A DNA stretch of 18,115 bases from IMG/VR virus record IMGVR_UViG_3300045988_171219, positions 1-18,115 of that record. One strand, given 5' to 3'. Position 1 is the stretch's first letter. Every line of letters starts with the position of its first letter. The translations under genes were made by a program, and so were the position numbers. Below the pieces are notes generated by a model. It was not told where the DNA came from, made no database searches, and was given only the letters and a program-made list of their open reading frames with translations. Below are positions 1-18,115 of this stretch, piece by piece. This DNA is from a virus.

Positions 1-39
1 GCTATTTCAACATCTTAATAATTTAGATGTTGAAATAGC
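1..39. repeat. Terminal hairpin palindrome (15-bp arms, 9-nt loop)
   Basis: GCTATTTCAACATCT (1-15) is the perfect complement of AGATGTTGAAATAGC (25-39). The loop is TAATAATTT (16-24). Confidence 0.9.
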
Positions 40-162
40 AAAGTTAGTTATGTATATACATTGTATATACCCCCATTAATGCCAATACACTGACAATATA
101 GGCAACTGAGAGGCAAGGGGCTAGGGGTAAGTTGGCAATATGGTGGAGGAAATAGTCAAATT

Positions 163-205
163 GCGTTAAAAAGTGGCTGTTATTCATTGGCAATGGTGTT
201 ATAAT
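163..205 (+). promoter_or_regulatory. ITR-L inward-facing promoter (extended -10) with upstream 16-nt motif
   Basis: TGTTATAAT has TG at 197-198 and TATAAT at 200-205. The -35 is weak (CTGTTA 177-182). The motif GCGTTAAAAAGTGGCT (163-178) ends 21 nt before the -10. SD GAGGAGG (221-227) and ATG 236 follow. Confidence 0.55.
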
Positions 206-235
206 ATTTATATCAATTGAGAGGAGGAAAAGCAT

Positions 236-355
236 ATGGCAAATACAATTGATAAATATCTTAATAATTTAGATGTTGAAATAGCATACCTAAAATATGT
301 TGCTGAACAACTAAAATTGTTAAATGAAGAACTAGAAGAAAGCGAGGTAAAATAA
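236..355 (+). CDS. ITR-encoded 39-aa acidic coiled-coil-like protein (left copy)
   Basis: ATG 236 lies 8 nt after SD GAGGAGG. Translation is MANTIDKYLNNLDVEIAYLKYVAEQLKLLNEELEESEVK with stop TAA at 353-355. It is too short for the ORF track, and an identical copy lies at 17761-17880(-). Confidence 0.55.
   Translation: MANTIDKYLNNLDVEIAYLKYVAEQLKLLNEELEESEVK
258..286 (+). repeat. Internal direct copy of the terminal 29-mer (identical to 12-40)
   Basis: ATCTTAATAATTTAGATGTTGAAATAGCA occurs at 12-40 and again at 258-286, inside the 39-aa ORF. Mirrored copies lie at 18076-18104 and 17830-17858. Confidence 0.9.
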
Positions 356-359
356 AATG

Positions 360-387
360 TTGACAATGAAAATTAAAGTGTTATAAT
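360..387 (+). promoter_or_regulatory. Left early promoter (sigma-A type)
   Basis: TTGACA (360-365), a 16-nt spacer, then TGTTATAAT (TATAAT 382-387). It starts exactly at the inner ITR boundary and is followed by SD AGGAG and ATG 414. Confidence 0.6.
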
Positions 388-2455: not shown

Positions 2456-2782
2456 ATGAAAGATGAAGAATACAACAATTTATTAGAAGAAGTTGTAAAA
2501 GATGATACTAGTATTGAACGAAAACTAGAAATATGTAAAACATTGCAAGATGATAGAAAAGCAAGTTTAGACGCATATCAAGAGTTAAGTGATAATACTG
2601 GTAAGTTACAGGCAGATTATAAAGCCTTGAAAAATCAAAAGGTTACAGAGTTTTTTAATTCTGGTGTTAAAGTTGAGGAAAATACTCAAATTTTAGGAGA
2701 TGAAGAAGATGATGAACCTAAAGAAAAAACTTATGATGAAATTGTTGATGACATGTTAGGAGTGAGTGAAAATGCCAACTAA
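2456..2782 (+). CDS. Scaffolding protein (phi29 gp7-like), 108 aa
   Basis: Acidic, helical protein directly upstream of and overlapping the capsid gene. As recalled, the N-terminal half runs parallel to phi29 gp7 (EE..LL......ER..E....L......Y..L....KL.A). ATG 2456 with SD is preferred over the track's GTG at 2447. Confidence 0.65.
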   Translation: MKDEEYNNLLEEVVKDDTSIERKLEICKTLQDDRKASLDAYQELSDNTGKLQADYKALKNQKVTEFFNSGVKVEENTQILGDEEDDEPKEKTYDEIVDDMLGVSENAN

Positions 2783-4094
2783 GGCAGAAACAAATGGTGT
2801 TGCAATGCTTAATAGCATAAGACAGGCTATTATTGGACAATCTAACGAACTTAATTTTGCTGACAGAATACCTTTAGCAACTCAAGCAAATATTAAAGAG
2901 TTTGGGGCTAGTCTTATGGAATATGAACCCGCTATTAATGCGTTTGTAAACGAACTTGTTAATCGTATAGGATATACGTATATAACAAGAAAAAATATGA
3001 CTAACACCTTAAAATTTTTGAAAAAAGGTAAGTTAGATTTTGGAGATACTATCCAAGATATTATGGTTGATATTGCTAAAGCACATACATTCGCAAGTGC
3101 ACCAAAAACTGGTGAAGAATGTGATGTATTCGCAGTAAATAAACCTGATGTAAAAGTAGCATATTATAGTGTTAATAGAGAGGACCAATACCCTATTACA
3201 ATTAATGAAGATATGTTAAAAATGGCTTTCATGAGTTATGATAAATTATCAAGATTTGTTTCTAGTATTCTTGATAGTGTATATAATGCTGATGAAGTTG
3301 ATGAATTTATTCTATTTAAAAATTTAATTGGTAAGACATTATCTAATTCTTATTTAGTTAAAGTTGATAAACCTATTGATAGAAACACCGCTGAGGCTTT
3401 TAGTGAAAAAATGAGAACATACTCATATGCTATGAGTTTTCCAAGTAGAAAATATAACAGAGCGGGTGTAGCAACTAGAACTAATTTAGAAGAACAATTA
3501 CTAATTATGCGTTCTGATATCGCACCTGTAATTGATGTTAGACAACTTGCTAATAATTTCCAATTAAATTATGGTAAACCTTTAGCGGGAAGAATTGTTC
3601 TTGTTGATGATTTTGGAGATTTTAGTAATATTCTAGGTGGTTTAATTGATAAAGATTTTGCGATGATATATGATGTAACATATAAAATGACTAGTCAATA
3701 CAATGCTAGACACCTATATTGGAATTATTTCTTAACTCATAGACAAGTAATTGCTTCAAGTTTTTATGCTAATGCAGTTGGGTTTACAACAGAAGATGTT
3801 GTATTTGCAATTAATAGCATAAATATAGAACCTAAAGAACAATCTATAAGAAAAGGATATAATGGAAGTGTTGATGTTGTTGTTGACTTTACTGGACAAG
3901 GGGATACATCTTATACATTAACTATAAGTGGTAATGTTTCAAATGCCACTAAGATTGAACAAGACGGAAAAATCTATATTGGTGCTGATGAAACCGCTAG
4001 TGCTATCACTATCACAGCCACAAGCACAGCAAAATTTGGAACTAGTGAACCGAAACCTGTTACTGGTACGGCTAGTGTAAAGGTTAAAAATTAA
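2772..4094 (+). CDS. Major capsid protein (phi29 gp8-like) with C-terminal Ig-like (Big_2-type) domain, 440 aa
   Basis: Several blocks parallel phi29 gp8 as recalled: IPLATQANIKEFG, VNRIGYTYI, SFVSSILDSVYNADEVDEF, LYWNYF and FYANAVGF. The last ~90 aa (YTLTISG...ITITATSTA...ASVKV) look like a Big_2 domain. SD GGAG at 2759-2762; start ATG 2772. Confidence 0.9.
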   Translation: MPTKAETNGVAMLNSIRQAIIGQSNELNFADRIPLATQANIKEFGASLMEYEPAINAFVNELVNRIGYTYITRKNMTNTLKFLKKGKLDFGDTIQDIMVDIAKAHTFASAPKTGEECDVFAVNKPDVKVAYYSVNREDQYPITINEDMLKMAFMSYDKLSRFVSSILDSVYNADEVDEFILFKNLIGKTLSNSYLVKVDKPIDRNTAEAFSEKMRTYSYAMSFPSRKYNRAGVATRTNLEEQLLIMRSDIAPVIDVRQLANNFQLNYGKPLAGRIVLVDDFGDFSNILGGLIDKDFAMIYDVTYKMTSQYNARHLYWNYFLTHRQVIASSFYANAVGFTTEDVVFAINSINIEPKEQSIRKGYNGSVDVVVDFTGQGDTSYTLTISGNVSNATKIEQDGKIYIGADETASAITITATSTAKFGTSEPKPVTGTASVKVKN

Positions 4095-5941
4095 TGGTAA
4101 TTAGACCAACGAACGAGGTGCGTATCTATAAGAACGTACCTTTTTCAATAGATTATAAAAATATTATGGACTTTAGTTCGGTGGCGGAACAGAGTGCATA
4201 TTTTAATTCTTTACCTCAAAAGACATTTAGTAATTTAACATATACTAGAAATAATGGTACAATTATAGTTAATGGAAATCGTGATACATTACTTGATTAT
4301 AATTATATGTCTTTTGTTAATAAAGATTATGGAAATAAAACATTTTATGCTTTTATTACCAATGTTAGATATTCAAGTGCTAATGCTTCATATATAGATT
4401 TTGTAATTGATGAGTGGCAAACATGGTGTTTTGATGTTAATTTTAAAGAAAGTTTTATTGAAAGAAAACATTGTAAAAGGTGGAATAGCGACGGAACACC
4501 CGTAATAAATACGCAAGATGAGGGACTAGATTTTGGTAGTGAATATATTGTAAAAGACCATAGAGAATATAATAACAATCTTTATTGGGTGTGTTATGTT
4601 ACTAGTGTTGAAAATTATGACGCCATTTATTCAAGACCAAAAGATATACCCAACCAATTAGCGGTATTTTATGCCCCAATATATAAAACAACTAATAACA
4701 CGATTGCACAATGGAAATTAGGTGATGTCTATATGGCTTCACATGACACTATTACCAATAGATTTAGGAATAGTGATAAGTTAGTTAATAGGTTAAAAAG
4801 TGTTTTCATAGTAAGTGAACCCCCGTTTAGTTATACTTATACAATAAGTGGTGGCTATATTAATGTTACATCTAATGATTTAAAAGTTACTAAAATTCAA
4901 TGGGGGAGCGAAGAAACCTATTCAATAAATATGGGATATTGGGTAAGTAATAAAAACCCCGCTAACACTTTAAGAACTTTTCCAAAATATGGTAATTTAA
5001 AAAATAATATTACTGAAAGTAAATTATTAATGTTTCCGTATTCATATGTTCAAATTGTAGACGGACAAGGAAATAGTTTTGATATTAAAAATGAATATCT
5101 AGACGATACACAAATAAATGTTCGTACATTTACAAGTGGTGGGTTAAATAGTAAACAAGCCCATATAGTTGAACATTATAGATATAAAGGTGTCAACTTG
5201 AATTATTGTAGGTGGGAACTAGGTAATGGTGTTATTAATAATTTTCCTAATAATTTAACAATTATTGATGACTATTCGGCAGCATACTTGCAAGGAAATG
5301 CTAATCAAATTAATCAATCTGTTAATGCAACACTTAATCAATCTCAACTTAATAATGTTTTAGCACAAAATACAGCAAGGGCTAGTCAATCGGCTTCACT
5401 TGTTAGAGGTGTTGGTGATACTATTGGTGGTGGAATAGTTCAACCTTTAGTGGGTGCTGGTGGTGGAATTAAAGCCTTAGGAGATTATACAGCAACTGTT
5501 ATTACTAGTGAACAACAAGTTGAAAATACTGAATTACAAGGTAATTTAACAAGTGAAAATGCTGTTAAAAGTGCTTTAGCAAAAAAACAAGACGCCCAAA
5601 ATGTGGCGGATAATGTTTCTCTACAAGGTGGAGATGTATATTTTACATTTCAAAATCAATATAATGGTTATTGTCTTGTTTATAAACAAATATCTGATGA
5701 ATACATAAGAGTGTTAGAAGATTATTTTAAAAAATATGGCTATGCATATAATAGAATAGAAACACCACTTTTACGTACTAGAAAATCGTGGGATTATATA
5801 AGATGTATAGACGCAAATATAACGGGGAATATTAATGAAAATTCCTTAGAAAAAATAAAAACTATATTTAATCAAGGTGTAACAATATGGCACACTACTG
5901 ATGTTGGTAATTATAGTTTAAATAATGATGAAAGGACATAA
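4094..5941 (+). CDS. Tail knob / distal tube protein (phi29 gp9-like), 615 aa
   Basis: Blocks colinear with phi29 gp9 as recalled: NVPFSIDYKN, DYGNKTFYAFIT, FKESFIERKH..WNSDGTPVINTQDEGLDFGSEY, ESKLLMFPYSY, DDYSAAYLQGNANQ, YFKKYGYAYNRIE..LRTRK and IFNQGVTIWHT..VGNYS. Confidence 0.9.
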   Translation: MVIRPTNEVRIYKNVPFSIDYKNIMDFSSVAEQSAYFNSLPQKTFSNLTYTRNNGTIIVNGNRDTLLDYNYMSFVNKDYGNKTFYAFITNVRYSSANASYIDFVIDEWQTWCFDVNFKESFIERKHCKRWNSDGTPVINTQDEGLDFGSEYIVKDHREYNNNLYWVCYVTSVENYDAIYSRPKDIPNQLAVFYAPIYKTTNNTIAQWKLGDVYMASHDTITNRFRNSDKLVNRLKSVFIVSEPPFSYTYTISGGYINVTSNDLKVTKIQWGSEETYSINMGYWVSNKNPANTLRTFPKYGNLKNNITESKLLMFPYSYVQIVDGQGNSFDIKNEYLDDTQINVRTFTSGGLNSKQAHIVEHYRYKGVNLNYCRWELGNGVINNFPNNLTIIDDYSAAYLQGNANQINQSVNATLNQSQLNNVLAQNTARASQSASLVRGVGDTIGGGIVQPLVGAGGGIKALGDYTATVITSEQQVENTELQGNLTSENAVKSALAKKQDAQNVADNVSLQGGDVYFTFQNQYNGYCLVYKQISDEYIRVLEDYFKKYGYAYNRIETPLLRTRKSWDYIRCIDANITGNINENSLEKIKTIFNQGVTIWHTTDVGNYSLNNDERT

Positions 5942-11678: not shown

Positions 11679-12671
11679 ATGCCTGAAAGTTTTTATTATA
11701 GTCCTCAAAAATTACTTACATATAACTATCTATGGAATATGGTTATCGGAGAACGTGGTAATGGTAAAACATATGCTATGAAAAAATATTTTATTAAAGA
11801 TTTTATAAAAAATGGACATCAATTCGTTTGGATAAGAAGATACGAAACTGAATTTGATGATTTTAAAGAATTTTTCTCTGATATTATAGCCAATAATGAA
11901 TTTCCAAAATATGAATTAAGTGTTAATGGAAAAAAGTTATATTGTAATGGTAAAGTTATGGGTTTTGGTATACCTTTATCAAAAGGTATTACTAAAAAGA
12001 GTGTTAATTATTCTGGTGTAACACATATATGTTTTGATGAATTTTTAATACCTAGAGGTTCAAGTTATCATTATTTAAAAAATGAGGTGTTTCGTCTTTT
12101 TGATTTATACGAAACAATCGCACGTACAAGACGGGTTAAAATGTTTATGGTTGCTAACTCAATAAGTCAAAATAACCCTTATTTTAGAGAATTTAATATT
12201 CGATTAACGGGAGAATTTACTAAAGTAAATGAACAAGTTATTGTTGAAACTACCAATAGTGTTAATTATAGACAATATAAAAAGCAAACAGATTTTGGAC
12301 GTCTTGCTTCACTTACTGGTTATTCAAAATACGCTATTGATAATGATTTTGTGGAGGATAATTATAATTTTATTGAAAAAAGAACTCCTGAGGCAATAAA
12401 CAGATTTAATATTCAATTTGATAAAATAATGTTAGGTATATGGATAGACACTAAAAATGGTAAATTATTTGTATCAAATAAATATAATCCTGAACTTCCT
12501 GTTTATTGTATAACCGTGGACCATTTAAAACCTAATTATCTAATTTTAAAATCTAATTCACACTTTATGAATATGTTAAAAAATGCTTATGAATATGGAT
12601 ATATTTATTATGAAAATCTAAAAATAAAGGGTTATATGGAAAATGTCCAAAAGTATTTGAATATAAAATAA
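11679..12671 (+). CDS. DNA encapsidation (packaging) ATPase (phi29 gp16-like), 330 aa
   Basis: FYYSPQKLLTYNYLWNMVIGERGNGKTYAMKKY contains Walker A (GxxGxGKT), and ICFDEF is Walker B-like. Nearly colinear with phi29 gp16 as recalled and of similar length. Confidence 0.9.
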   Translation: MPESFYYSPQKLLTYNYLWNMVIGERGNGKTYAMKKYFIKDFIKNGHQFVWIRRYETEFDDFKEFFSDIIANNEFPKYELSVNGKKLYCNGKVMGFGIPLSKGITKKSVNYSGVTHICFDEFLIPRGSSYHYLKNEVFRLFDLYETIARTRRVKMFMVANSISQNNPYFREFNIRLTGEFTKVNEQVIVETTNSVNYRQYKKQTDFGRLASLTGYSKYAIDNDFVEDNYNFIEKRTPEAINRFNIQFDKIMLGIWIDTKNGKLFVSNKYNPELPVYCITVDHLKPNYLILKSNSHFMNMLKNAYEYGYIYYENLKIKGYMENVQKYLNIK

Positions 12672-12685
12672 TAATGTGTTATAAT
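12657..12685 (+). promoter_or_regulatory. Promoter-like element P1 overlapping the end of the ATPase gene
   Basis: TTGAAT (12657-12662), a 17-nt spacer, then TGTTATAAT (TATAAT 12680-12685). Confidence 0.4.
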
Positions 12686-12691
12686 ATATAA

Positions 12692-12773
12692 AGGGAGAAG
12701 TTACGCTATATGCTTTTATCCGTTTAACTTTTTTAATCTCCCTAAGATATAACTATATGTTATATCCTTTTTT
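12692..12773 (+). ncRNA. Small RNA unit 1 (~80 nt), or alternatively the structured 3' UTR of the late operon
   Basis: A long imperfect hairpin pairs AGGGAGA (12692-12698) with TCTCCCT (12737-12743) and AAGTTA (12698-12703) with TAACTT (12725-12730). The terminator at 12746-12773 follows. No credible ORF, only a 5-codon ATG frame. Confidence 0.3.
12746..12773 (+). terminator. Rho-independent terminator (late operon / sRNA unit 1)
   Basis: Stem GATATAAC (12746-12753) pairs with GTTATATC (12759-12766) around loop TATAT, followed by CTTTTTT. Confidence 0.7.
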
Positions 12774-12774
12774 C

Positions 12775-12803
12775 TTGACTTAAAAACTTTTATATGTTAT
12801 ATT
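12775..12803 (+). promoter_or_regulatory. Promoter P2
   Basis: TTGACT (12775-12780), a 17-nt spacer, then TGTTATATT (-10 TATATT 12798-12803). It abuts the preceding terminator's T-tract. Confidence 0.55.
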
Positions 12804-12809
12804 ATAGAT

Positions 12810-12944
12810 ATGAAACGGGTAAATAAGCACGCATAACACAAGTTCTTATTTCTCTATAAAACCTAACCTGAAAAAAGTTGAATTTCTCTATACCCGTTTC
12901 ATCTATTAATCTATATGAAAAAGCAACTGATAAGTTGTTTTTTC
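12810..12944 (+). ncRNA. Small RNA unit 2 (~135 nt); pRNA candidate by adjacency to the packaging ATPase
   Basis: A 12-bp closing helix pairs ATGAAACGGGTA (12810-12821) with TACCCGTTTCAT (12891-12902). Two CU-rich direct repeats ATTTCTCTATA lie at 12848-12858 and 12882-12892. The terminator hairpin pairs 12917-12928 with 12933-12944. No SD-preceded ORF. Confidence 0.45.
12917..12944 (+). terminator. Terminator-like hairpin ending sRNA unit 2
   Basis: GAAAAAGCAACT, loop GATA, AGTTGTTTTTTC form a 12-bp stem with one G-T pair. The 3' arm itself is T-rich. Confidence 0.5.
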
Positions 12945-12954
12945 ATTTGTAATA

Positions 12955-12983
12955 TTTACATTAATACAAACATTTGTTATAAT
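12955..12983 (+). promoter_or_regulatory. Promoter P3
   Basis: TTTACA (12955-12960), a 17-nt spacer, then TGTTATAAT (TATAAT 12978-12983). Confidence 0.6.
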
Positions 12984-12989
12984 ATAAAT

Positions 12990-13076
12990 GGTAACATCTT
13001 ACCTCGAGTAACTTTCATGTGTTACCTAAACCTTAAGAAATCTTAAGAACATTTAAGAAATCTTAAGGTAATTTTA
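12990..13076 (+). ncRNA. Small RNA unit 3 (~87 nt)
   Basis: The 5' hairpin pairs GGTAACA (12990-12996) with TGTTACC (13020-13026), with alternative pairings involving TTACC (12999-13003) and GTAAC (13008-13012). A long terminator hairpin at 13030-13069 follows. Confidence 0.45.
13030..13075 (+). terminator. Rho-independent terminator ending sRNA unit 3
   Basis: ACCTTAAGA (13030-13038) pairs with TCTTAAGGT (13061-13069), and TCTTAAG (13041-13047) pairs with TTTAAGA (13052-13058, with one G-T pair). Loop is AACA and the tail is AATTTT. The stem is built from two 15-nt direct repeats of TTAAGAAATCTTAAG. Confidence 0.55.
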
Positions 13077-13117
13077 GTTAAAGTGTGGCTTTTATTTTAT
13101 CAATAAAGTGGTATATT
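13075..13117 (+). promoter_or_regulatory. Replication-operon promoter (extended -10 plus 16-nt motif)
   Basis: The motif copy TAGTTAAAGTGTGGCT (13075-13090) ends 21 nt before TGGTATATT (-10 TATATT 13112-13117). This is the same geometry as in the ITR promoter. Confidence 0.45.
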
Positions 13118-13121
13118 TAAT

Positions 13122-13272
13122 TTACAAGCAGAAAAAATATAAGTATTTAAGAGTATAACTCTTTTGTACTTAACAAAATCTTTAAGGGAGTTTTGGCAAA
13201 AATTTCTGCTTGTAATATTAATTAATATTTATCCCTTAGAAAAATTTTTAAATGAAAGCGAGGTGAGAACAA
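13122..13272 (+). promoter_or_regulatory. Structured 5' leader of the SSB / terminal protein / polymerase operon
   Basis: A 13-bp stem pairs TTACAAGCAGAAA (13122-13134) with TTTCTGCTTGTAA (13203-13215). Nested hairpins pair 13140-13145 with 13167-13172 and 13149-13153 with 13159-13163. Loop segment TAAGGGA (13183-13189) is complementary to TCCCTTA (13232-13238). An AU-rich stretch leads to SD GAGGTGA (13260-13266). Confidence 0.45.
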
Positions 13273-13686
13273 ATGAATAACATGTTGACAGTTATGGACG
13301 AAATGCAAGAAGCCTCTAAACAAACTTATTGTTCTATGTTAATAAATAATGAAGAAGATAAGAAAAAATTGTTTAATCTTTTAGGTAATAGTGATACAAG
13401 AGTTAGTGATAACTTAGATAAAACTATTTCATTAAAAGATGTAGTGCTTCAAAAATTCCCAAAAGTTGATGAAGAAACAGGGGAACTAACATATAGTGTT
13501 CGTGTAATCTTAGTTGATAAAGACGGAAAAACTTACGCTAGTGGGTCAAGAGGACTTTATAGAAGTGTTTTACAACTTATTCAATTAGTTGGTGAACCTA
13601 ACACATGGACTAACCCTATCGACATTAAAGTTGTTGAAACTAACATTAAAAATGGTGGTAAAACTTTTGTAATCAAGACAATATAG
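13273..13686 (+). CDS. Single-stranded DNA-binding protein (phi29 p5-like), 137 aa
   Basis: First gene of the replication operon. As recalled, the C-terminal ~100 aa are colinear with phi29 p5 (FN....S..NL.D.TI ... I...DG..Y...S ... L..LV ... KVV......G..F). Confirmation by HHpred is needed. Confidence 0.55.
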   Translation: MNNMLTVMDEMQEASKQTYCSMLINNEEDKKKLFNLLGNSDTRVSDNLDKTISLKDVVLQKFPKVDEETGELTYSVRVILVDKDGKTYASGSRGLYRSVLQLIQLVGEPNTWTNPIDIKVVETNIKNGGKTFVIKTI

Positions 13687-13748: not shown

Positions 13749-14807
13749 ATGGCTTTAAGAATAAGTAAAAAAGAGAAAAAGTGGTTATATCAAAAAAATG
13801 CTAGTGCAAACAGAAAAGTAAAAAGACTAGCAACTGAGTTTAATATTCAAAATACATTTAAAACAATACGCCCCTCATCATTTAGAACAAGAAAAGAATT
13901 AAATGATTATAAGAAAAGTTTATCTACCTTTTTAAAAAGAAGCACTCATAAATATGTTAGTGGAACGGGTACATATGTTAAATATGTTGGTAATAAAGAA
14001 ATAATCGCAAGAACCGCTATCCCTCAAAAAGAATTTACCGAAATAAGAAAAATTGTTAATCGACGTAATGAACGAGTACGTAGACAAGTTGCTTTATTTA
14101 AATATAAATCTTATGAGGTAAAGGGTGTTACAATTAAAGGTTCATCAACCTATGGACAAATATTTTCTCTAAGACCACCTAAACACGAACTTCAATTTAA
14201 GTATTCTCAATATCATAAAATTGATATTGATAAGTCTTATTTTACCTCCGAGCGAGCGTGGAAAAAATTTGCTTATGGTGTTAAGAAATATCAAACCCCA
14301 CTATCAATTTTAGAAAGGCAATTAATAATGAAAAAGAATTATATAGAAGCCCTACATAATACTTTTGGAAAAAATGCTGACCTTTTAACTGAACTTGTTG
14401 ATAAACTATCAATTGATGATTTTATGACATTTTATGAAAGTGAGAGATTTAGTGATTTTGATTATATTTATGATGAGGTTTTACGTGATGAGGTTTTAAA
14501 ATACATGACGGAACATATGGTTAATTATGTAAAAGAATTAAAACCTAGAGGTATTACTGATAGAGACGTATACGAGGCTTTAGAATATGTTAATAGTTTA
14601 ACCGAAGAAGCAATAACCGAAGAATACAACAAAGGTAAACTAGGTGGTAAACGTATTAAGTTTAAAGTTAAAGGTGAAAATGGACAAACTTATTGGAATT
14701 ATATCGACTTATCACCCACAGAGGTTATTGAGGTTGAAAAAGGTAAAGCCCTTGTTGAATTAAATGATTTTGAAAATAGAACCCATTATATAAAAATAGG
14801 AAAATAA
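13749..14807 (+). CDS. Terminal protein (phi29 gp3-like), 352 aa
   Basis: Lies immediately upstream of the DNA polymerase gene and has a basic N-terminus. FRTRKELNDYKKSLSTF parallels phi29 TP FETRAQFNKWKEQASSF, and DDFMTFYESERFSDFDYIYDE parallels the DDFYELF...SFEEFDSE priming region as recalled. Confidence 0.75.
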   Translation: MALRISKKEKKWLYQKNASANRKVKRLATEFNIQNTFKTIRPSSFRTRKELNDYKKSLSTFLKRSTHKYVSGTGTYVKYVGNKEIIARTAIPQKEFTEIRKIVNRRNERVRRQVALFKYKSYEVKGVTIKGSSTYGQIFSLRPPKHELQFKYSQYHKIDIDKSYFTSERAWKKFAYGVKKYQTPLSILERQLIMKKNYIEALHNTFGKNADLLTELVDKLSIDDFMTFYESERFSDFDYIYDEVLRDEVLKYMTEHMVNYVKELKPRGITDRDVYEALEYVNSLTEEAITEEYNKGKLGGKRIKFKVKGENGQTYWNYIDLSPTEVIEVEKGKALVELNDFENRTHYIKIGK

Positions 14808-14808
14808 T

Positions 14809-16506
14809 ATGAATAAACGAAAAAGTTATGTTGCTGATTTTGAAACAACAACAAATTTGGAAGATTGTCGGGTATGGTGTTATTCTATTAGTGAAATTGG
14901 AAACGAAGATAATACGATAGTAGGAAAAACAATTGAAGATTTTTTCAAACACCTAGAAACTCTAGGTAGTGCTATCGTATTTTTTCATAATTTACGTTTC
15001 GACGCTCAATTCATACTTTATTATATTTTAACATTGGGTTACACTCATGTAAAAGATAAAAAATATATGCGACGTAAAACTTTTACATCTCTTATTAGTG
15101 GACTAGGTGTATTTTATAGTATTGAAGTAAAACTTGAAAATGGTAATTTAATAACATTTTACGATAGTCTAAAAAAGATACCTAAACCTGTAAAACAAAT
15201 ACCAAAAGATTTTGGACTTGAAGAAGAAAAGGGAGAAATTGATTATAATAAAGAAAGACCTGTTGGTTATGAACTTGATGAAAACGAAAAATCTTATGTT
15301 ATGCATGATACTATAATTGTATCAAAAGCCTTAGATATCCAATTTAGTCAAGGACTAGATAAAATGACAATAGCGGGAGACGCTATCGCTTCGGTAAAAT
15401 CTATGACCGATTTTAGAGGACTTTTTCCCGTTTTATCAAAAGAAGAAGATGAATTTATTCGTAAAAGTTATCGTGGTGGTTGGACTTATTGTAACCCAAA
15501 ATTTCAAAATGTTGACTTGAAAGAATTGGAAGTATATGATGTAAACTCATTATACCCCTCACGTATGCGATATTGTATGCTTCCAAAAGGACCCGCCATA
15601 TACTATAAAGGTAAATATGTAGAAAATGATAAATACCCTTTATATGTTGCTCATATCTATGCAACTTTTAAATTAAAGAAAGGTTGTTTACCATGTATTC
15701 AAGATAAACACAATCGAATGTTTGCCTCAACTGAATATATATGCGAATATGATAATATACTTGAACCTTTAGAAATATATCTTACTAGTGTTGATTTAAA
15801 ACTATTTTTAGATATGTACGATATTTATTATATAGAATATGTTGACGGATATATGTTTGAGGGTGCTTATGGTATGTTTGATAATTATATTGATTATTGG
15901 AACAATCAAAAAATAGAAGCGGGTAAGGAAAAAAACGCAAGCAAAAGAACAATTGCTAAACTTATGCTTAATTCTTGCTATGGTAAATTTGCAAGTGCTG
16001 TAAAATCTACATCTAAAGTGCCTTATCTAAAAGATGACGGAGTTGTTGGATATGAGACAATAGAAGATGAAGATAGAGAACCTGTATACACACCTGTTGC
16101 CGCTTTTATAACCGCCGAAGCAAGAGATTTAACTATTCGGTCGGCTGCCCAATGTATTGATAGGTTTTGTTATGCTGATACAGATTCCTTACATGTCTTA
16201 AAGGATAAAACACCACCAAATATTCCCATTGACGATTTTAAATTAGGATACTTTAAATTAGAAAGTAGTCCAAGACGTGCAAGATTTTTACGTGCTAAAA
16301 CATATATTGAGGAGATTTATGATGAAAAATCAAACACATGGAAATTTGATGTTAAATGTGCGGGTATGAACGATGATGTTAAAAAATTAGTTACATGGGA
16401 TAATTTCCATTATGGCTTTACAAGTGATTTAAAAAAGAAGCCTAAAAATGTTAAAGGTGGAGTTGTTATAGTTAATACACCCTTTACAATTAGTGAACCT
16501 AAATGA
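14809..16506 (+). CDS. Protein-primed family-B DNA polymerase (phi29 gp2-like), 565 aa
   Basis: Motifs found: ExoI YVADFETTT, ExoII FHNLRFDAQF, ExoIII YVMHDTIIV, motif A YDVNSLYPS, motif B KLMLNSCYGKF, motif C YADTDS, and KxY AKTYIEE. The N-terminus (DFETTT..EDCRVW) and FYDSLKKIPKPVKQIPKDF are nearly colinear with the phi29 polymerase. Confidence 0.95.
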   Translation: MNKRKSYVADFETTTNLEDCRVWCYSISEIGNEDNTIVGKTIEDFFKHLETLGSAIVFFHNLRFDAQFILYYILTLGYTHVKDKKYMRRKTFTSLISGLGVFYSIEVKLENGNLITFYDSLKKIPKPVKQIPKDFGLEEEKGEIDYNKERPVGYELDENEKSYVMHDTIIVSKALDIQFSQGLDKMTIAGDAIASVKSMTDFRGLFPVLSKEEDEFIRKSYRGGWTYCNPKFQNVDLKELEVYDVNSLYPSRMRYCMLPKGPAIYYKGKYVENDKYPLYVAHIYATFKLKKGCLPCIQDKHNRMFASTEYICEYDNILEPLEIYLTSVDLKLFLDMYDIYYIEYVDGYMFEGAYGMFDNYIDYWNNQKIEAGKEKNASKRTIAKLMLNSCYGKFASAVKSTSKVPYLKDDGVVGYETIEDEDREPVYTPVAAFITAEARDLTIRSAAQCIDRFCYADTDSLHVLKDKTPPNIPIDDFKLGYFKLESSPRRARFLRAKTYIEEIYDEKSNTWKFDVKCAGMNDDVKKLVTWDNFHYGFTSDLKKKPKNVKGGVVIVNTPFTISEPK

Positions 16507-16512
16507 TATAAT
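16483..16512 (+). promoter_or_regulatory. Promoter P4, embedded in the last codons of the polymerase gene
   Basis: TTTACA (16483-16488), an 18-nt spacer (or TTACAA with 17 nt), then TGATATAAT (TATAAT 16507-16512). The TG of the extension is part of the TGA stop codon. Confidence 0.55.
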
Positions 16513-16517
16513 AGATT

Positions 16518-16681
16518 TGTTAGAGAACCCATATTATATATAAATATGATAATAGGGATATTCCAAGGGAGACCTTGCCTATTTATCTATATGTGGGAAA
16601 ACACGTTGTTTATATATTTTTGGATATTTTCTAACAACATTTTTCCTTAAGACACAGATTAAAAATAATTTGTGTCTTTTT
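16518..16681 (+). ncRNA. Structured ~160-nt RNA; best packaging-RNA (pRNA) candidate by synteny with phi29
   Basis: The end-closing helix pairs 16517-16527 with 16627-16637 (11 bp, one G-U). A second helix pairs CCCATAT (16528-16534) with ATGTGGG (16591-16597). A GNRA-capped hairpin CAAGG-GAGA-CCTTG lies at 16564-16577, and a small hairpin pairs 16599-16603 with 16607-16611, giving a three-way junction. The terminator is at 16649-16681. It lies just beyond the polymerase gene toward the genome end, as the phi29 pRNA does. Confidence 0.5.
16649..16681 (+). terminator. Rho-independent terminator (pRNA candidate / replication operon)
   Basis: AAGACACA (16649-16656) pairs with TGTGTCTT (16671-16678), followed by TTTAGTTTT. 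Confidence 0.65.
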
Positions 16682-16724
16682 AGTTTTCAAAAATATCGAA
16701 CCCCCCTTTATAGAAAAAATTTTT

Positions 16725-16833
16725 TAGTAACACTTGTTACCAAAAGTAGTAACACTTGTTACCAAAAGTAGTAACACTTGTTACTGTGTGAAAATGTGGC
16801 TAAACAAATGTTCGTATAGTAACACTTGTTACC
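16725..16833. repeat. Repeat family A: four copies of TAGTAACACTTGTTAC(C), three of them in 22-bp tandem phase
   Basis: Copies lie at 16725-16741, 16747-16763, 16769-16784 and 16817-16833. Copies 1-3 are separated by AAAAG. Each contains the dyad GTAACA-CT-TGTTAC. Confidence 0.9.
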
Positions 16834-16883
16834 ACGCGTTAAAATGTGGCTAAACAATTGTTCGTATGTGTGAAAATGTGGCT
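16786..16883. repeat. Repeat family B: three copies of the 16-nt motif G(T/C)GT(G/T)AAAATGTGGCT, two extended by AAACAA(A/T)TGTTCGTAT
   Basis: Copies lie at 16786-16801 (extension to 16817), 16836-16851 (extension to 16867) and 16868-16883. Related copies occur at 163-178, 13075-13090 and 17938-17953(-). Confidence 0.85.
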
Positions 16884-17410: not shown

Positions 17411-17759
17411 TTAATACCCCTTTTAATTCTTTAATACATTTATTAAGATTGGTATTAAGTTTAATATTAATACTTTTATAATCTGACTTTGATAATATTA
17501 AACGTGCTTTATCATTATATTTTTTAATTATTGTATCAATTGTTTGTTGCTTTTTGTTTGTTTTTAAATATTCGTATCCATCTGTGATTATGAAATTATT
17601 ATCTACTTCATAAACATCAAATCGCCACCCATAAATATTATTATAATAAAATCGTGGTGCTTTTCTTCTTAATAAATATTGTGTATCACAATACGAACAT
17701 GAAACTATATAATAATAATTTTCTTTTAATTCTTTTTTATTTACTTTACATTTTAACAT
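17400..17759 (-). CDS. Right-arm early protein, 119 aa, unknown function (CSYC motif, YGWRFDVYEV block)
   Basis: The start ATG lies inside the ITR (TAAAATG stop/start coupling to the 39-aa ORF), using the ITR's GAGGT as SD. Family not recognised with confidence. Confidence 0.55.
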   Translation of the reverse strand: MLKCKVNKKELKENYYYIVSCSYCDTQYLLRRKAPRFYYNNIYGWRFDVYEVDNNFIITDGYEYLKTNKKQQTIDTIIKKYNDKARLILSKSDYKSINIKLNTNLNKCIKELKGVLNEI

Positions 17760-17760
17760 T

Positions 17761-17880
17761 TTATTTTACCTCGCTTTCTTCTAGTTCTTCATTTAACAAT
17801 TTTAGTTGTTCAGCAACATATTTTAGGTATGCTATTTCAACATCTAAATTATTAAGATATTTATCAATTGTATTTGCCAT
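17761..17880 (-). CDS. ITR-encoded 39-aa acidic coiled-coil-like protein (right copy)
   Basis: Mirror image of 236-355 with an identical sequence. First cistron of the leftward operon. Confidence 0.55.
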   Translation of the reverse strand: MANTIDKYLNNLDVEIAYLKYVAEQLKLLNEELEESEVK

Positions 17881-17910
17881 ATGCTTTTCCTCCTCTCAAT
17901 TGATATAAAT

Positions 17911-17953
17911 ATTATAACACCATTGCCAATGAATAACAGCCACTTTTTAACGC
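17911..17953 (-). promoter_or_regulatory. ITR-R inward-facing promoter (mirror of 163-205)
   Basis: Reverse complement of the ITR-L promoter, with -10 at 17911-17916 and the 16-nt motif at 17938-17953. Confidence 0.55.
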
Positions 17954-18076
17954 AATTTGACTATTTCCTCCACCATATTGCCAACTTACCCCTAGCCCCT
18001 TGCCTCTCAGTTGCCTATATTGTCAGTGTATTGGCATTAATGGGGGTATATACAATGTATATACATAACTAACTTT

Positions 18077-18115
18077 GCTATTTCAACATCTAAATTATTA
18101 AGATGTTGAAATAGC
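18077..18115. repeat. Terminal hairpin palindrome, right end (loop in opposite orientation)
   Basis: Same arms as 1-39. The loop reads AAATTATTA on the + strand, which follows from the ITR. Confidence 0.9.

What the first reader, a model, noticed from the sequence alone, without database searches (positions are those of the whole stretch)
12657..13076. Three back-to-back small-RNA transcription units packed between the packaging ATPase and the replication genes
Within 420 bp there are three near-consensus promoters, each followed by a structured ORF-less segment and a hairpin-plus-T-tract terminator:
- Unit 1: promoter 12657-12685, segment ending at terminator 12746-12773
- Unit 2: promoter 12775-12803, segment ending at terminator 12917-12944
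- Unit 3: promoter 12955-12983, segment ending at terminator 13030-13075

The units abut one another; for example the T-tract of terminator 1 runs into the -35 of P2. phi29-type phages are known for one ncRNA, the pRNA. With the separate, better pRNA candidate at 16518-16681, this genome would carry up to four promoter-driven structured RNAs in 18 kb.

The extra RNAs could be regulatory sRNAs, decoys, or parts of a multi-RNA packaging motor. I do not recognise any of them as a known family.
Basis: partly seen in the sequence, partly recalled or inferred. Interest (0 to 1): 0.8.

Follow-up and report, generated by a model that had tools for sequence, protein, structure and literature searches.

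The report
Tandem small-RNA genes in phi29-like phage
Between the packaging and replication genes of a small phi29-like phage lie three tiny promoter-to-terminator RNA genes, and at least one seems built to pair with, and so probably silence, the ribosome-binding site of the phage's single-stranded-DNA-binding protein gene, a kind of RNA control not described for this phage group.

Summary
Three strong sigma-A-type promoters with TG-extended -10 boxes sit exactly where reported (3 seen, 0.014 expected). Each precedes an ORF-less, well-folding segment. Units 1 and 2 end in a hairpin plus U6. "Terminator 3" is really four phased 10-bp AAATCTTAAG repeats, invariant in relatives. It belongs to the upstream region of a fourth promoter (P4), which drives the SSB-TP-DNAP operon.

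Fifteen relatives (48-99% ATPase identity) keep the design: a promoter over the ATPase stop codon, one to four hairpin-terminator modules, then P4 and a pseudoknotted leader. The module sequences are swapped wholesale between relatives.

None of the units is the pRNA. A covarying three-way-junction pRNA lies at 16518-16640. Nothing matches Rfam.

The unit 3 loop is complementary to the SSB ribosome-binding site, and this co-varies in three clades. SSB is its best target among all phage start sites. The unit 1 loop matches the start site of a 39-aa ORF in both terminal repeats. Unit 2 has no phage target.

Best reading: c4-like anti-RBS riboregulators of early genes. This is inferred from sequence only, and the statistical support is moderate. 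It is a new variant of a known kind.

The parts
12657..12685 (+). P1 promoter: TTGAAT-17-TATAAT with TG extension. It overlaps the last codons and the stop codon of the gp16 ATPase gene.
   Evidence: An equivalent promoter sits at the ATPase stop codon in every relative read.
12692..12774 (+). Unit 1 RNA, about 82 nt. Hairpin with arms 12692-12703 and 12737-12743. Loop seed GCUAUAUGCUUUUAUCC at 12705-12721. Terminator T1 at 12746-12766 followed by CUUUUUUC.
   Evidence: Fold -20.2 kcal/mol, z -4.1. T1 -7.7 kcal/mol. The seed pairs with the start site of the 39-aa terminal-repeat ORF at -24.9 kcal/mol.
12775..12803 (+). P2 promoter: TTGACT-17-TATATT with TG extension.
12810..12946 (+). Unit 2 RNA, about 135 nt. 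12-bp closing stem 12810-12821/12891-12902. Inner hairpin 12822-12850. Single-stranded AAAACCUAACCU at 12858-12869. Repeated ATTTCTCTATA at 12848 and 12882. Terminator T2 at 12915-12946.
   Evidence: Fold -33.1 kcal/mol, z -5.9. Repeats. T2 -15.5 kcal/mol. The closing stem is wholly replaced in the L004 clade while the motifs are kept. No phage target found.
12955..12983 (+). P3 promoter: TTTACA-17-TATAAT with TG extension.
12990..13026 (+). Unit 3 hairpin. Arms 12990-12997 and 13017-13026. The loop carries CUUACCUCG (12998-13006) and CUUUCAU (13012-13018), complementary to the SSB start region.
13028..13069 (.). More likely a DNA-level element upstream of P4 than a terminator.
   Evidence: Invariant in 9 relatives, with 0 of 16 pairs covarying. 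The tail is only UAAUUUUAG.
13080..13117 (+). P4: box AAAGTGTGGCT, 18 nt, then the extended -10 TGGTATATT. There is no -35. This is the likely promoter of the SSB-TP-DNAP operon.
   Evidence: GTGGCT-N18-TGnTATAWT occurs 3 times in the genome (P4 and both terminal repeats) against 0 expected. Box count. Conserved in relatives.
13122..13272 (+). SSB mRNA leader with an H-type pseudoknot. Stem A 13122-13134/13203-13215. Stem B 13183-13189/13232-13238. AU-rich palindrome at 13214-13229. The unit 3 target is at 13252-13267 (AUGAAAG CGAGGUGAG).
218..241 (+). Proposed unit 1 target: start region GGAGGAAAAGCAUAUGGC of the 39-aa ORF in the left terminal repeat. The same sequence lies on the - strand of the right repeat at about 17875-17898.

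Best explanation
The block is a tandem array of three independently transcribed, non-coding small-RNA genes of about 82, 135 and 87 nt. They lie on the + strand between the end of the late operon (gp16 ATPase) and the replication operon (SSB, terminal protein, DNA polymerase).

Strong host sigma-A-type promoters fire each unit. Units 1 and 2 stop at hairpin+U6 terminators. Unit 3 has at best a leaky stop.

At least two units act as base-pairing riboregulators of early-gene translation, in the manner of the c4 RNA of phages P1 and P7. The loop of unit 3 pairs with the Shine-Dalgarno region of the SSB mRNA (9 bp plus 7 bp). The loop of unit 1 pairs across the spacer and AUG of the 39-aa ORF that opens each terminal-repeat operon (13 bp). 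Either pairing would keep the 30S subunit off the start site.

Unit 3 could act in trans as a free RNA. It could also act in cis, when P3 transcripts read through into the SSB message. SSB messages made from the activator-type promoter P4 lack the anti-SD and would be translated.

The function of unit 2 is unknown, and it has no phage start-site target.

Shown: the sequence elements, their conservation as a design, and the complementarities with their statistics. Inferred: that the RNAs are made, terminated and repress translation.
For: - Promoters. Three sites of the strong class sit in 360 bp, against 0.014 expected.
- Non-coding and structured. No conserved ORF and no gene called in the spacer of any of the 13 relatives' loci that come with gene calls. 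Folding z-scores are -4.1 to -5.9.
- Design conserved while sequences are replaced. A promoter at the ATPase stop codon, 1-4 hairpin+terminator modules, then P4 and the leader, in 15 lineages of 48-99% ATPase identity. High-scoring promoters and terminators are found by the tool in L004 and L009.
- Unit 3 against its own SSB start site. Window -21.5 kcal/mol (p=0.003 against shuffles), L004 -24.3 (p=0.01), L009 p=0.033, L003 p=0.047. SSB is the best of all start sites for the unit-3-type RNA in the window, L004 and L003, and for the single unit of L007.
- Compensatory change. The window has target GCGAGGU with loop ACCUCG. L004 has GUGAGGU with ACCUCAC. L003 has a different U-rich/purine-rich pair.
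- Cognate-versus-swapped test. Over 11 lineages the sum is -201.0 against -169.3 +/- 8.1, with 1 of 20,000 permutations as low.
- Read-through fold. Folding P3 through SSB pairs the unit 3 loop with the SD in both the MFE and the centroid structure.
- Unit 1. It pairs with the terminal-repeat ORF start site at -24.9 kcal/mol. Only 0.14% of background windows reach this. Family-wise p=0.035. Pairing is retained in the 97% relative.
- Combined significance. My Fisher combination of the five family-wise p-values for unit-1/unit-3-type RNAs gives about 0.001. This was calculated by hand, not by a tool.
- Other lineages carry explicit anti-SD strings, for example GGUCACCUCCUUUCU in L016.
Against: - There is no expression data of any kind, and the host is unknown.
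- The family-wise p-values are only moderate (0.02-0.13).
- When four more distant lineages are added and the blocks are trimmed, the cognate signal falls to p=0.02. Ten of 15 lineages do not rank their own SSB site in the top three, and some rank near the bottom. Outside 4-5 clades the loops are only generically pyrimidine-rich.
- In this AT-rich genome, long chance duplexes are common. The best genome-wide hit for unit 2 was matched by 33 of 60 shuffles.
- Unit 2 has less complementarity to phage start sites than its own shuffles (p=0.89 and 0.975).
- The T1 stem is weak (-7.7 kcal/mol), and T1 and T2 fail the tool's G-C criterion.
- The reverse strands fold as well as the forward ones.
- The 97% relative gives no clean compensatory change for unit 1.
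Confidence: 0.5

Rival explanations
1. Tandem early promoters with attenuators. P1-P4 all serve the replication operon, as the tandem early promoters A2c and A2b do in phi29. The hairpins and terminators only tune read-through, so the short RNAs are by-products with no function of their own.
For: All four promoters point at the SSB operon with no gene between them. T1 is weak and T3 is doubtful. The read-through fold is coherent. The T1 hairpin may simply be the terminator of the late operon.
Against: This does not explain why loop sequences track the SSB start site across clades. It does not explain the 13-bp match of unit 1 to a start site 12 kb away. It also does not explain why each module keeps a hairpin+U-tract end while its sequence is replaced.
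Confidence: 0.2
2. DNA-level control region. The inverted repeats are operators or bent DNA for phage or host proteins that switch early and late transcription, as the p4/p6 sites do in phi29. On this view the RNA folds are incidental.
For: The 13028-13067 repeat has a 10-bp period and is invariant. The arms of the unit 3 stem (GGTAACA / TGTTACC) equal the half-sites of the GTAACActtGTTAC palindrome, which is repeated four times at 16727-16832. L019 has three such palindromes in the same spacer. P4 has a conserved upstream box.
Against: The stems of units 1, 2 and 3 are replaced by unrelated complementary sequences in sister clades. That pattern is expected for RNA helices, not for protein-recognition sites. 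The loops, not the stems, carry the conserved or target-matching sequence.
Confidence: 0.12
3. The units, unit 2 above all, are aimed at the host: sRNAs against host mRNAs, sponges for an RNA-binding protein, or decoys against a defence system.
For: Unit 2 folds best (z -5.9). It keeps single-stranded A/C-rich motifs across clades while its stems change. It avoids phage start sites. The modules are hypervariable in number and content, as is typical of host-interaction loci.
Against: There is no host genome to test against. Nothing matches Rfam. There are no CRISPR-repeat-like or ToxI-like tandem repeats in units 1 and 2.
Confidence: 0.13
4. Extra packaging RNAs: paralogues or partners of the pRNA in a multi-RNA motor.
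For: The units lie just downstream of the packaging ATPase gene. In some distant relatives (about 37-39% ATPase identity) a promoter-driven structured RNA, possibly their pRNA, follows the ATPase gene.
Against: A complete covarying pRNA with a three-way junction lies at 16518-16640, in the phi29-syntenic position after the polymerase gene. Units 1-3 lack that topology and do not hit the pRNA model. The unit number varies from 1 to 4 among close relatives.
Confidence: 0.03

Closest known systems
c4 antisense RNA of phages P1 and P7 (Rfam C4 family)
   Same: A small structured RNA encoded upstream of its target, on the same strand. Its loops are complementary to the ribosome-binding region of a downstream gene and block translation (summarised in PMC12197685). 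Specificity changes through co-variation of loop and target between related phages.
   Different: There is no sequence or structure match (cmscan negative). Here each RNA has its own promoter and terminator. From my own knowledge, c4 is instead cut out of the operon transcript. The host is apparently a low-GC Gram-positive and the phage a lytic phi29-type. The targets are an SSB gene and a terminal-repeat ORF, not an antirepressor.
phi29 central control region (early promoters A2c and A2b, late promoter A3, proteins p4 and p6)
   Same: Several strong sigma-A promoters are packed into a few hundred bp at the junction of the late and early operons. One promoter lacks a -35 and has a conserved upstream site (my knowledge of phi29; P4 here).
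   Different: In phi29 the early promoters are divergent from the late one, none is followed by its own terminator, and control is by proteins. Here all promoters point the same way and three are closed off as short units.
phi29 pRNA (Rfam RF00044)
   Same: A promoter-driven small structured RNA of a phi29-like phage.
   Different: Units 1-3 have no three-way junction or loop-loop pair and do not hit the model. The true pRNA-type RNA is elsewhere, at 16518-16640.
C-rich or UCCC-loop sRNAs of Gram-positive bacteria (e.g. RsaE/RoxS, 6C; PMC6486639)
   Same: Pyrimidine-rich hairpin loops that pair with Shine-Dalgarno sequences. Several relatives carry CCCCC or CACCUCC loops.
   Different: Those are chromosomal and multi-target, with conserved sequence. 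These are phage-borne, lineage-specific and not homologous.
T4 gene 32 translational operator (applies to the adjacent SSB leader, not units 1-3)
   Same: A pseudoknot in the 5' leader of a phage SSB gene, followed by an A+U-rich stretch with UUAA repeats that runs to the ribosome-binding site (PMC3014915). Here the two stems and AAUAUUAAUUAAUAUU are conserved in 16 lineages.
   Different: The SSB family is unrelated (phi29 p5 type). The AU-rich stretch lies partly inside the pseudoknot as its third loop. Binding by the SSB is untested.

Membership tests
Sigma-70/sigma-A promoter | -35 and -10 hexamers 16-18 bp apart, here with a TG-extended -10 | tested here: met
   Matches of 10-11 out of 12 with TG at all three sites. 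Enrichment 3 against 0.014. Activity is not tested.
Intrinsic (Rho-independent) terminator | Stable G+C-containing hairpin directly followed by a U-tract | tested here: inconclusive
   T1 is -7.7 kcal/mol plus U6, and T2 is -15.5 kcal/mol plus U6. Analogous module ends in L009 pass it. T3 has an interrupted tail, UAAUUUUAG, and an invariant repeat sequence, so the feature is not met for T3.
phi29 pRNA (RF00044) | Match to the covariance model | tested here: not met
   No hit anywhere in the window, even at E up to 10. The model also misses the real pRNA-type RNA, so this test is weak.
phi29 pRNA (RF00044) | Long 5'/3' helix, three-way junction, bulge loop and hairpin loop able to pair between molecules | tested here: not met
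   The folds of units 1-3 lack this topology. It is present, with 20 of 31 compensatory pairs, at 16518-16640.
c4-type anti-RBS RNA | Match to the Rfam C4 model | tested here: not met
   No hit. These RNAs are not members of the family by homology.
c4-type anti-RBS RNA | Exposed loop complementary to the ribosome-binding region of a gene downstream on the same strand, co-varying with it | tested here: met
   Unit 3 against SSB. The signal is limited to 4-5 clades.
c4-type anti-RBS RNA | Represses translation of the target | not testable with these tools
   Needs reporter fusions or toeprinting.
Trans-encoded base-pairing sRNA (general) | Own promoter, own terminator, no coding capacity | tested here: met
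   Met for units 1 and 2. For unit 3 the terminator is doubtful.
Trans-encoded base-pairing sRNA (general) | A target with better-than-chance complementarity | tested here: inconclusive
   Unit 1 p=0.035 and unit 3 p=0.055, family-wise. Unit 2 p=0.89.
Repeat-based phage RNAs (ToxI-like antitoxin arrays, solitary CRISPR repeats) | Tandem direct repeats of ~30-36 nt, or a CRISPR-repeat-like hairpin | tested here: not met
   The only tandem repeat in the block is the 10-bp AAATCTTAAG array. Comparison with real CRISPR repeats of the unknown host is not possible.
tRNA / tmRNA | Cloverleaf detected by ARAGORN | tested here: not met
   0 genes in the window.

The most novel reading that the evidence does not exclude
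phi29-like gut phages carry a fast-evolving cassette array of promoter-hairpin-terminator RNA genes between the packaging and replication modules. The loops are re-targeted to the start sites of the phage's own early operons (the SSB gene and the terminal-repeat ORF). Together with a T4-gene-32-like pseudoknot operator on the SSB leader, this would make an RNA-based early/late translational switch in place of the protein (p4/p6) switch of phi29. Unit 2 would be a further, non-antisense RNA class of unknown function.
Probability: 0.25. Interest if true: 0.8.

Novelty: new variant of a known kind. Interest (0 to 1): 0.6.

Why it matters
phi29 is the textbook model for protein-primed replication and RNA-dependent packaging. 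As far as I know, its gene control is described entirely in terms of proteins, and its only known non-coding RNA is the pRNA. A recent review of phage-derived sRNAs does not mention this phage group.

If these units are made and act as predicted, a clade of phi29-like phages regulates its replication proteins with small anti-RBS RNAs. Loop and target would then evolve together. That offers a compact natural set of orthogonal riboregulator/target pairs. It is also a directly testable case of sRNA control in a lytic Gram-positive phage.

The work also yields two well-supported side results. One is a new covarying pRNA lineage. The other is a pseudoknotted SSB leader conserved in 16 lineages.

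Tried and rejected
- Rfam at gathering and at E up to 10: nothing relevant.
- blastn of the block against 50,697 phage records: no match. tblastn with the ATPase found only relatives below 40% identity there.
- tRNA/tmRNA scan: none.
- Coding potential. The 43-aa ORF at 12915-13046 and tiny ORFs in units 1 and 2 (MLLSV, MKRVNKHA) are not conserved in relatives. Read by eye.
- Unit 2 target search. There is no significant phage start-site target. The best genome-wide duplex lies inside the gp9 gene at 5193. The orthologous site also ranked high in L004, which looked like covariation. However, 33 of 60 shuffled unit 2 sequences do as well genome-wide, so I rejected it.
- A 12-bp unit 1/unit 2 complementarity (12723-12734 with 12871-12882). 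It is low-complexity A/U and not kept in the 97% relative, so I rejected it.
- Automatic search for the longest helix to define the leader pseudoknot. AU-rich helices swamped it. I replaced it with an energy test using hand-defined stem A.
- MAFFT/RNAalifold on units 2 and 3. It cannot align stems that were swapped wholesale, and it recovers only terminator pairs and the invariant repeat.
- Looking for a clean compensatory change for unit 1 in the 97% relative. Pairing is kept, but only by slippage of U/A runs, so it is not decisive.
Full report
**What the window is.** The 18,115 bases are a complete linear phi29-like podophage genome with 377-bp inverted terminal repeats.
- Profile searches identify the phi29-type capsid protein (2766-4094), tail knob gp9 (4094-5941) and packaging ATPase gp16 (11679-12671).
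- They also identify a phi29-type SSB (13273-13686), terminal protein (13749-14807) and type-B DNA polymerase (14809-16506).
- The finding lies in the 601-bp spacer between gp16 and the SSB gene.
- No record in the phage collection is close. The ATPase is below 40% identical to all of them, and there is no DNA match.

**Check of the observation: promoters and structure.**
- The promoter scan places + strand sites at exactly the reported coordinates: 12657-12685, 12775-12803 and 12955-12983. All have a 17-bp spacer and a TG-extended -10.
- Loose promoter-like matches are no commoner than in shuffles.
- The strong class (at least 10/12 plus TG) occurs three times in 360 bp against 0.014 per shuffle. 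There are only eight such sites in the whole genome.
- The other strong sites precede gene 414, the late operon (2408) and the pRNA (16483). The class therefore seems to mark real promoters.
- The segments are ORF-less. The one 43-aa ORF has no Shine-Dalgarno and is not conserved. No gene was called in the equivalent spacer of any of the 13 relatives' loci that come with gene calls.
- The segments fold far better than shuffles, with z of -4.1, -5.9 and -4.1. The reverse strands do too.

**Check of the observation: terminators.**
- T1 and T2 are hairpins followed by U6 (-7.7 and -15.5 kcal/mol).
- They are too A+T-rich for the tool's terminator rule.
- "Terminator 3" is different. It is four tandem 10-bp units, AAATCTTAAG, with only UAAUUUUAG behind the hairpin.

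**Relatives.**
- A protein search with the ATPase gave a graded series of 44 clusters.
- I fetched DNA around members at 99, 98, 88, 78, 76, 74, 71, 70, 69, 61, 59, 57, 56, 54 and 48% identity.
- Gene order gp16-spacer-SSB-TP-polymerase is constant. The spacer varies from 192 to 673 bp.
- Read side by side, all spacers share one design:
  - a TG-extended promoter over the ATPase stop codon;
  - one to four modules of hairpin plus hairpin/U-tract terminator, each extra module with its own near-consensus promoter;
  - a final promoter and a structured leader in front of the SSB gene.
- The tool confirms promoters scoring 12/12, 11/12 and 10/12 in L004, and promoters plus terminators in L009.
- Module sequences are not conserved, and stems are replaced wholesale:
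  - Unit 2 closes with AUGAAACGGGUA/UACCCGUUUCAU here and with GCAACUGAGAU/AUCUCRGUUGC in the L004 clade.
  - Unit 3 closes with GGUAACAU/AUGUGUUACC here and with UAGGGUG/CACCCUA there.
- This is the pattern expected of RNA helices. It is also why alignment-based covariation tools fail here.

**What the units are not.**
- Nothing in the window reaches any Rfam model, even at E=10. There is no tRNA.
- The pRNA is elsewhere. Behind promoter 16483-16512 lies an RNA (16518-16640, terminator 16649-16678) with a long 5'/3' helix and a three-way junction. It also has a bulge loop (UUCC) and a hairpin loop (GGAA).
- Six relatives support that RNA with compensatory changes in 20 of 31 pairs.
- It sits after the polymerase gene. 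From my knowledge of the phi29 map, that is the position of the phi29 pRNA relative to the early operon.
- Units 1-3 have no such topology.

**Unit 3 and the SSB start site.**
- The loop of the unit 3 hairpin reads CUUACCUCG...CUUUCAU. The SSB start region reads AUGAAAG-CGAGGUGAG. That gives 9 + 7 complementary bases across the Shine-Dalgarno.
- Among all phage start sites, SSB is the best partner (-21.5 kcal/mol). Only 0.7% of coding-sense background windows do as well.
- The same holds in other clades with different sequences:
  - L004: loop AACCUCACUUUCUU with target AAGGAAAGUGAGGU, 14 bp.
  - L003: a U-rich tract with CGAAAGAAAGGAGAAG.
  - L007, which has a single module: UUUCUCUUAG with CUAAGAGAAA.
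- Against dinucleotide shuffles of the RNA, the cognate energies have p of 0.003, below 0.003, 0.01, 0.033 and 0.047.
- SSB is the top-ranked start site in the window, L004, L003 and L007.
- In an 11-lineage matrix of module block against SSB start site, cognate pairs sum to -201.0 kcal/mol. Permuted pairings average -169.3 +/- 8.1, and 1 of 20,000 permutations was as low.
- The result weakens when four more distant lineages are added and the blocks are trimmed. Then p=0.02, and only the window, L009, L004 and L007 rank their own site first, with L003 third.
- The specific match is therefore real in some clades. Elsewhere the loops are just pyrimidine-rich. One example is GGUCACCUCCUUUCU in L016, almost a copy of the 16S rRNA 3' end.
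- Folding the full P3-to-SSB transcript pairs the unit 3 loop with the SD in both the MFE and the centroid structure. The element could therefore work in cis on read-through messages as well as in trans.

**Unit 1.**
- Its loop (GCUAUAUGCUUUUAUCC, 12705-12721) is complementary to GGAGGAAAAGCAUAUGGC. That is the start region of a 39-aa ORF present in both terminal repeats. The match is 13 contiguous pairs across the spacer and AUG.
- The energy is -24.9 kcal/mol, reached by 0.14% of background windows.
- It is the best of 24 start sites, with family-wise p=0.035.
- The start site of gene 414 carries the same AAAAGCAUAU and is the third-best partner.
- L009 has a unit 1 with a different stem but the same UGCUUUUAUC loop core.
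- In L004, the C-rich loop of unit 1 matches the start site of the second gene of the right-end operon (13 bp, p=0.06).
- The 97% relative keeps pairing only through slippage of U/A runs, which is not decisive.
- My hand calculation combining the five family-wise p-values for unit-1/unit-3-type RNAs by Fisher's method gives about 0.001.
- All best partners are early-operon start sites.

**Unit 2.**
- This is the best-folding unit, and it keeps an inner hairpin and single-stranded UCUCY...AAAACCUA...AACCU motifs across two clades.
- It has less complementarity to phage start sites than its own shuffles (p=0.89 and 0.975).
- Its best genome-wide duplex is an internal gp9 site that also scored high in L004. 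Even so, it is at chance level.
- L009 and L201 carry an unrelated RNA in the same slot.
- Its function is unknown.

**The 3' side of the block.**
- The 10-bp AAATCTTAAG repeats are nearly invariant in nine relatives whose flanks have diverged. None of their 16 potential pairs covaries.
- One clade has the second half inverted, which keeps four CTTAAG hexamers one helical turn apart.
- This points to a DNA-level role, either protein binding or phased A-tract bending.
- Just downstream is AAAGTGTGGCT, then 18 nt, then TGGTATATT. The same GTGGCT-N18-TGnTATAWT arrangement occurs only in the two terminal repeats (3 hits, 0 expected).
- So P4 and the terminal-repeat promoters form one class without a -35. 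They are plausibly activator-dependent, as phi29 A3 is (my knowledge).
- In L002 the box is replaced by a consensus-like -35 (TAGACA) and the repeat array has decayed.
- P4 transcripts start with an H-type pseudoknot: stem A 13122-13134/13203-13215 and stem B 13183-13189/13232-13238.
- Stem B takes at least nine different sequences in 16 lineages. Examples are AAGGGA/UCCCUU, GAGGGU/ACCCUC, UAGGGUG/CACCCUA, AGUGCG/CGCACU, CCCUCUU/AAGAGGG, GUAAGUGGU/ACCACUUAC, CACCUAC/GUAGGUG and GUGGCUA/UAGCCAC.
- It is the best inner-to-downstream duplex in all 12 lineages tested. Fisher's method over nine representative lineages gives p=1.8e-4.
- With its AU-rich UUAA-containing linker, the leader closely resembles the T4 gene 32 autoregulatory operator (PMC3014915).

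**Model.**
- Strong host-type promoters P1-P3 make small RNAs from the onset of infection. Late transcripts ending at T1 would also carry unit 1 in their 3' end.
- Units 1 and 3 pair with the start sites of the first cistrons of the box-dependent operons and hold down their translation.
- P4 messages escape cis-repression and are further tuned by the pseudoknot operator.
- Every functional step in this model is inferred.

**Rivals.**
- Tandem promoters with attenuators: 0.2.
- A purely DNA-level control region: 0.12, and probably correct for 13028-13117.
- Host-directed RNAs or decoys, above all unit 2: 0.13.
- Extra packaging RNAs: 0.03.

**Comparison with known systems, and verdict.**
- In mechanism the closest known system is the c4 RNA of P1 and P7. 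It too is an upstream, same-strand RNA whose loops mask the ribosome-binding site of a downstream gene (PMC12197685).
- The units are not members of that family. The model does not match, and here each RNA has its own promoter and terminator.
- A recent review of phage sRNAs does not mention phi29-type phages. My two literature searches found nothing on such RNAs.
- I rate this a new variant of a known kind, with interest 0.6. The architecture and its conservation are solid. The regulatory reading is plausible and testable but rests on moderate statistics and no expression data.

Noticed in passing
window 16483-16678: A pRNA-type RNA. Promoter at 16483-16512, RNA at 16518-16640 with a three-way junction, a UUCC bulge loop and a GGAA hairpin loop, terminator at 16649-16678. 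In six relatives 20 of 31 pairs show compensatory changes. The Rfam pRNA model misses it.
   Followed up: yes
window 13122-13272: The SSB mRNA leader forms an H-type pseudoknot. Stem B has at least nine different sequences in 16 lineages. A conserved AU-rich palindrome AATATTAATTAATATT lies between the stems. It resembles the T4 gene 32 translational operator.
   Followed up: yes
window 173-205, 13085-13117, 17911-17943 (-): A promoter class GTGGCT-N18-TGnTATAWT with no -35 is shared by P4 and both terminal repeats (3 hits, 0 expected). Three further AAAATGTGGCT boxes at 16791, 16841 and 16873 have no -10 behind them.
   Followed up: partly
window 16725-16867: Four copies of the palindrome GTAACACTTGTTAC, the first three in a tandem array with a 22-bp period, inside a larger 50-bp repeat. 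The half-sites equal the arms of the unit 3 stem. Relative L019 has three GGTAACAnnnGTTACC palindromes in its gp16-SSB spacer, in place of the CTTAAG repeats. Probably operators of an unidentified regulator.
   Followed up: partly
window 1-377 and 17739-18115: 377-bp inverted terminal repeats, 99% identical. Each encodes an inward-facing 39-aa ORF (start 236 on +, about 17880 on -). The ORF is conserved in L004 (41 aa), L003 (43 aa) and the 97% relative. The extreme ends are themselves palindromic (1-39).
   Followed up: partly
L016 2797-2811: The first module of this 78% relative contains GGTCACCTCCTTTCT, nearly identical to the 3' end of 16S rRNA. It is a generic anti-Shine-Dalgarno, and it also matches that phage's own SSB start site with one bulge.
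   Followed up: partly
L007 8247-8444: In the 61% relative, a 65-aa late-region gene has a precomputed hit to PF24729 (Acb2/Tad1 hairpin), a family of anti-CBASS/anti-Thoeris sponges. I did not look for a counterpart in the window.
   Followed up: no
window 16698-16714: CGAACCCCCCTTTATAG lies just after the pRNA terminator. Similar C-runs occur at the same place in L002 and L011. Meaning unknown.
   Followed up: no
window 12754-12765 and 12791-12802: An exact 12-nt direct repeat, TATATGTTATAT, links the 3' arm of T1 with the -10 region of P2. All three unit promoters share TGTTATAWTATA. This suggests the modules arose by duplication.
   Followed up: no
L102, L108, L137 (about 37-39% ATPase identity): In these distant relatives a consensus promoter directly after the ATPase gene drives a structured RNA with a long closing helix and a terminator. 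It may be their pRNA, in a different genome position.
   Followed up: no
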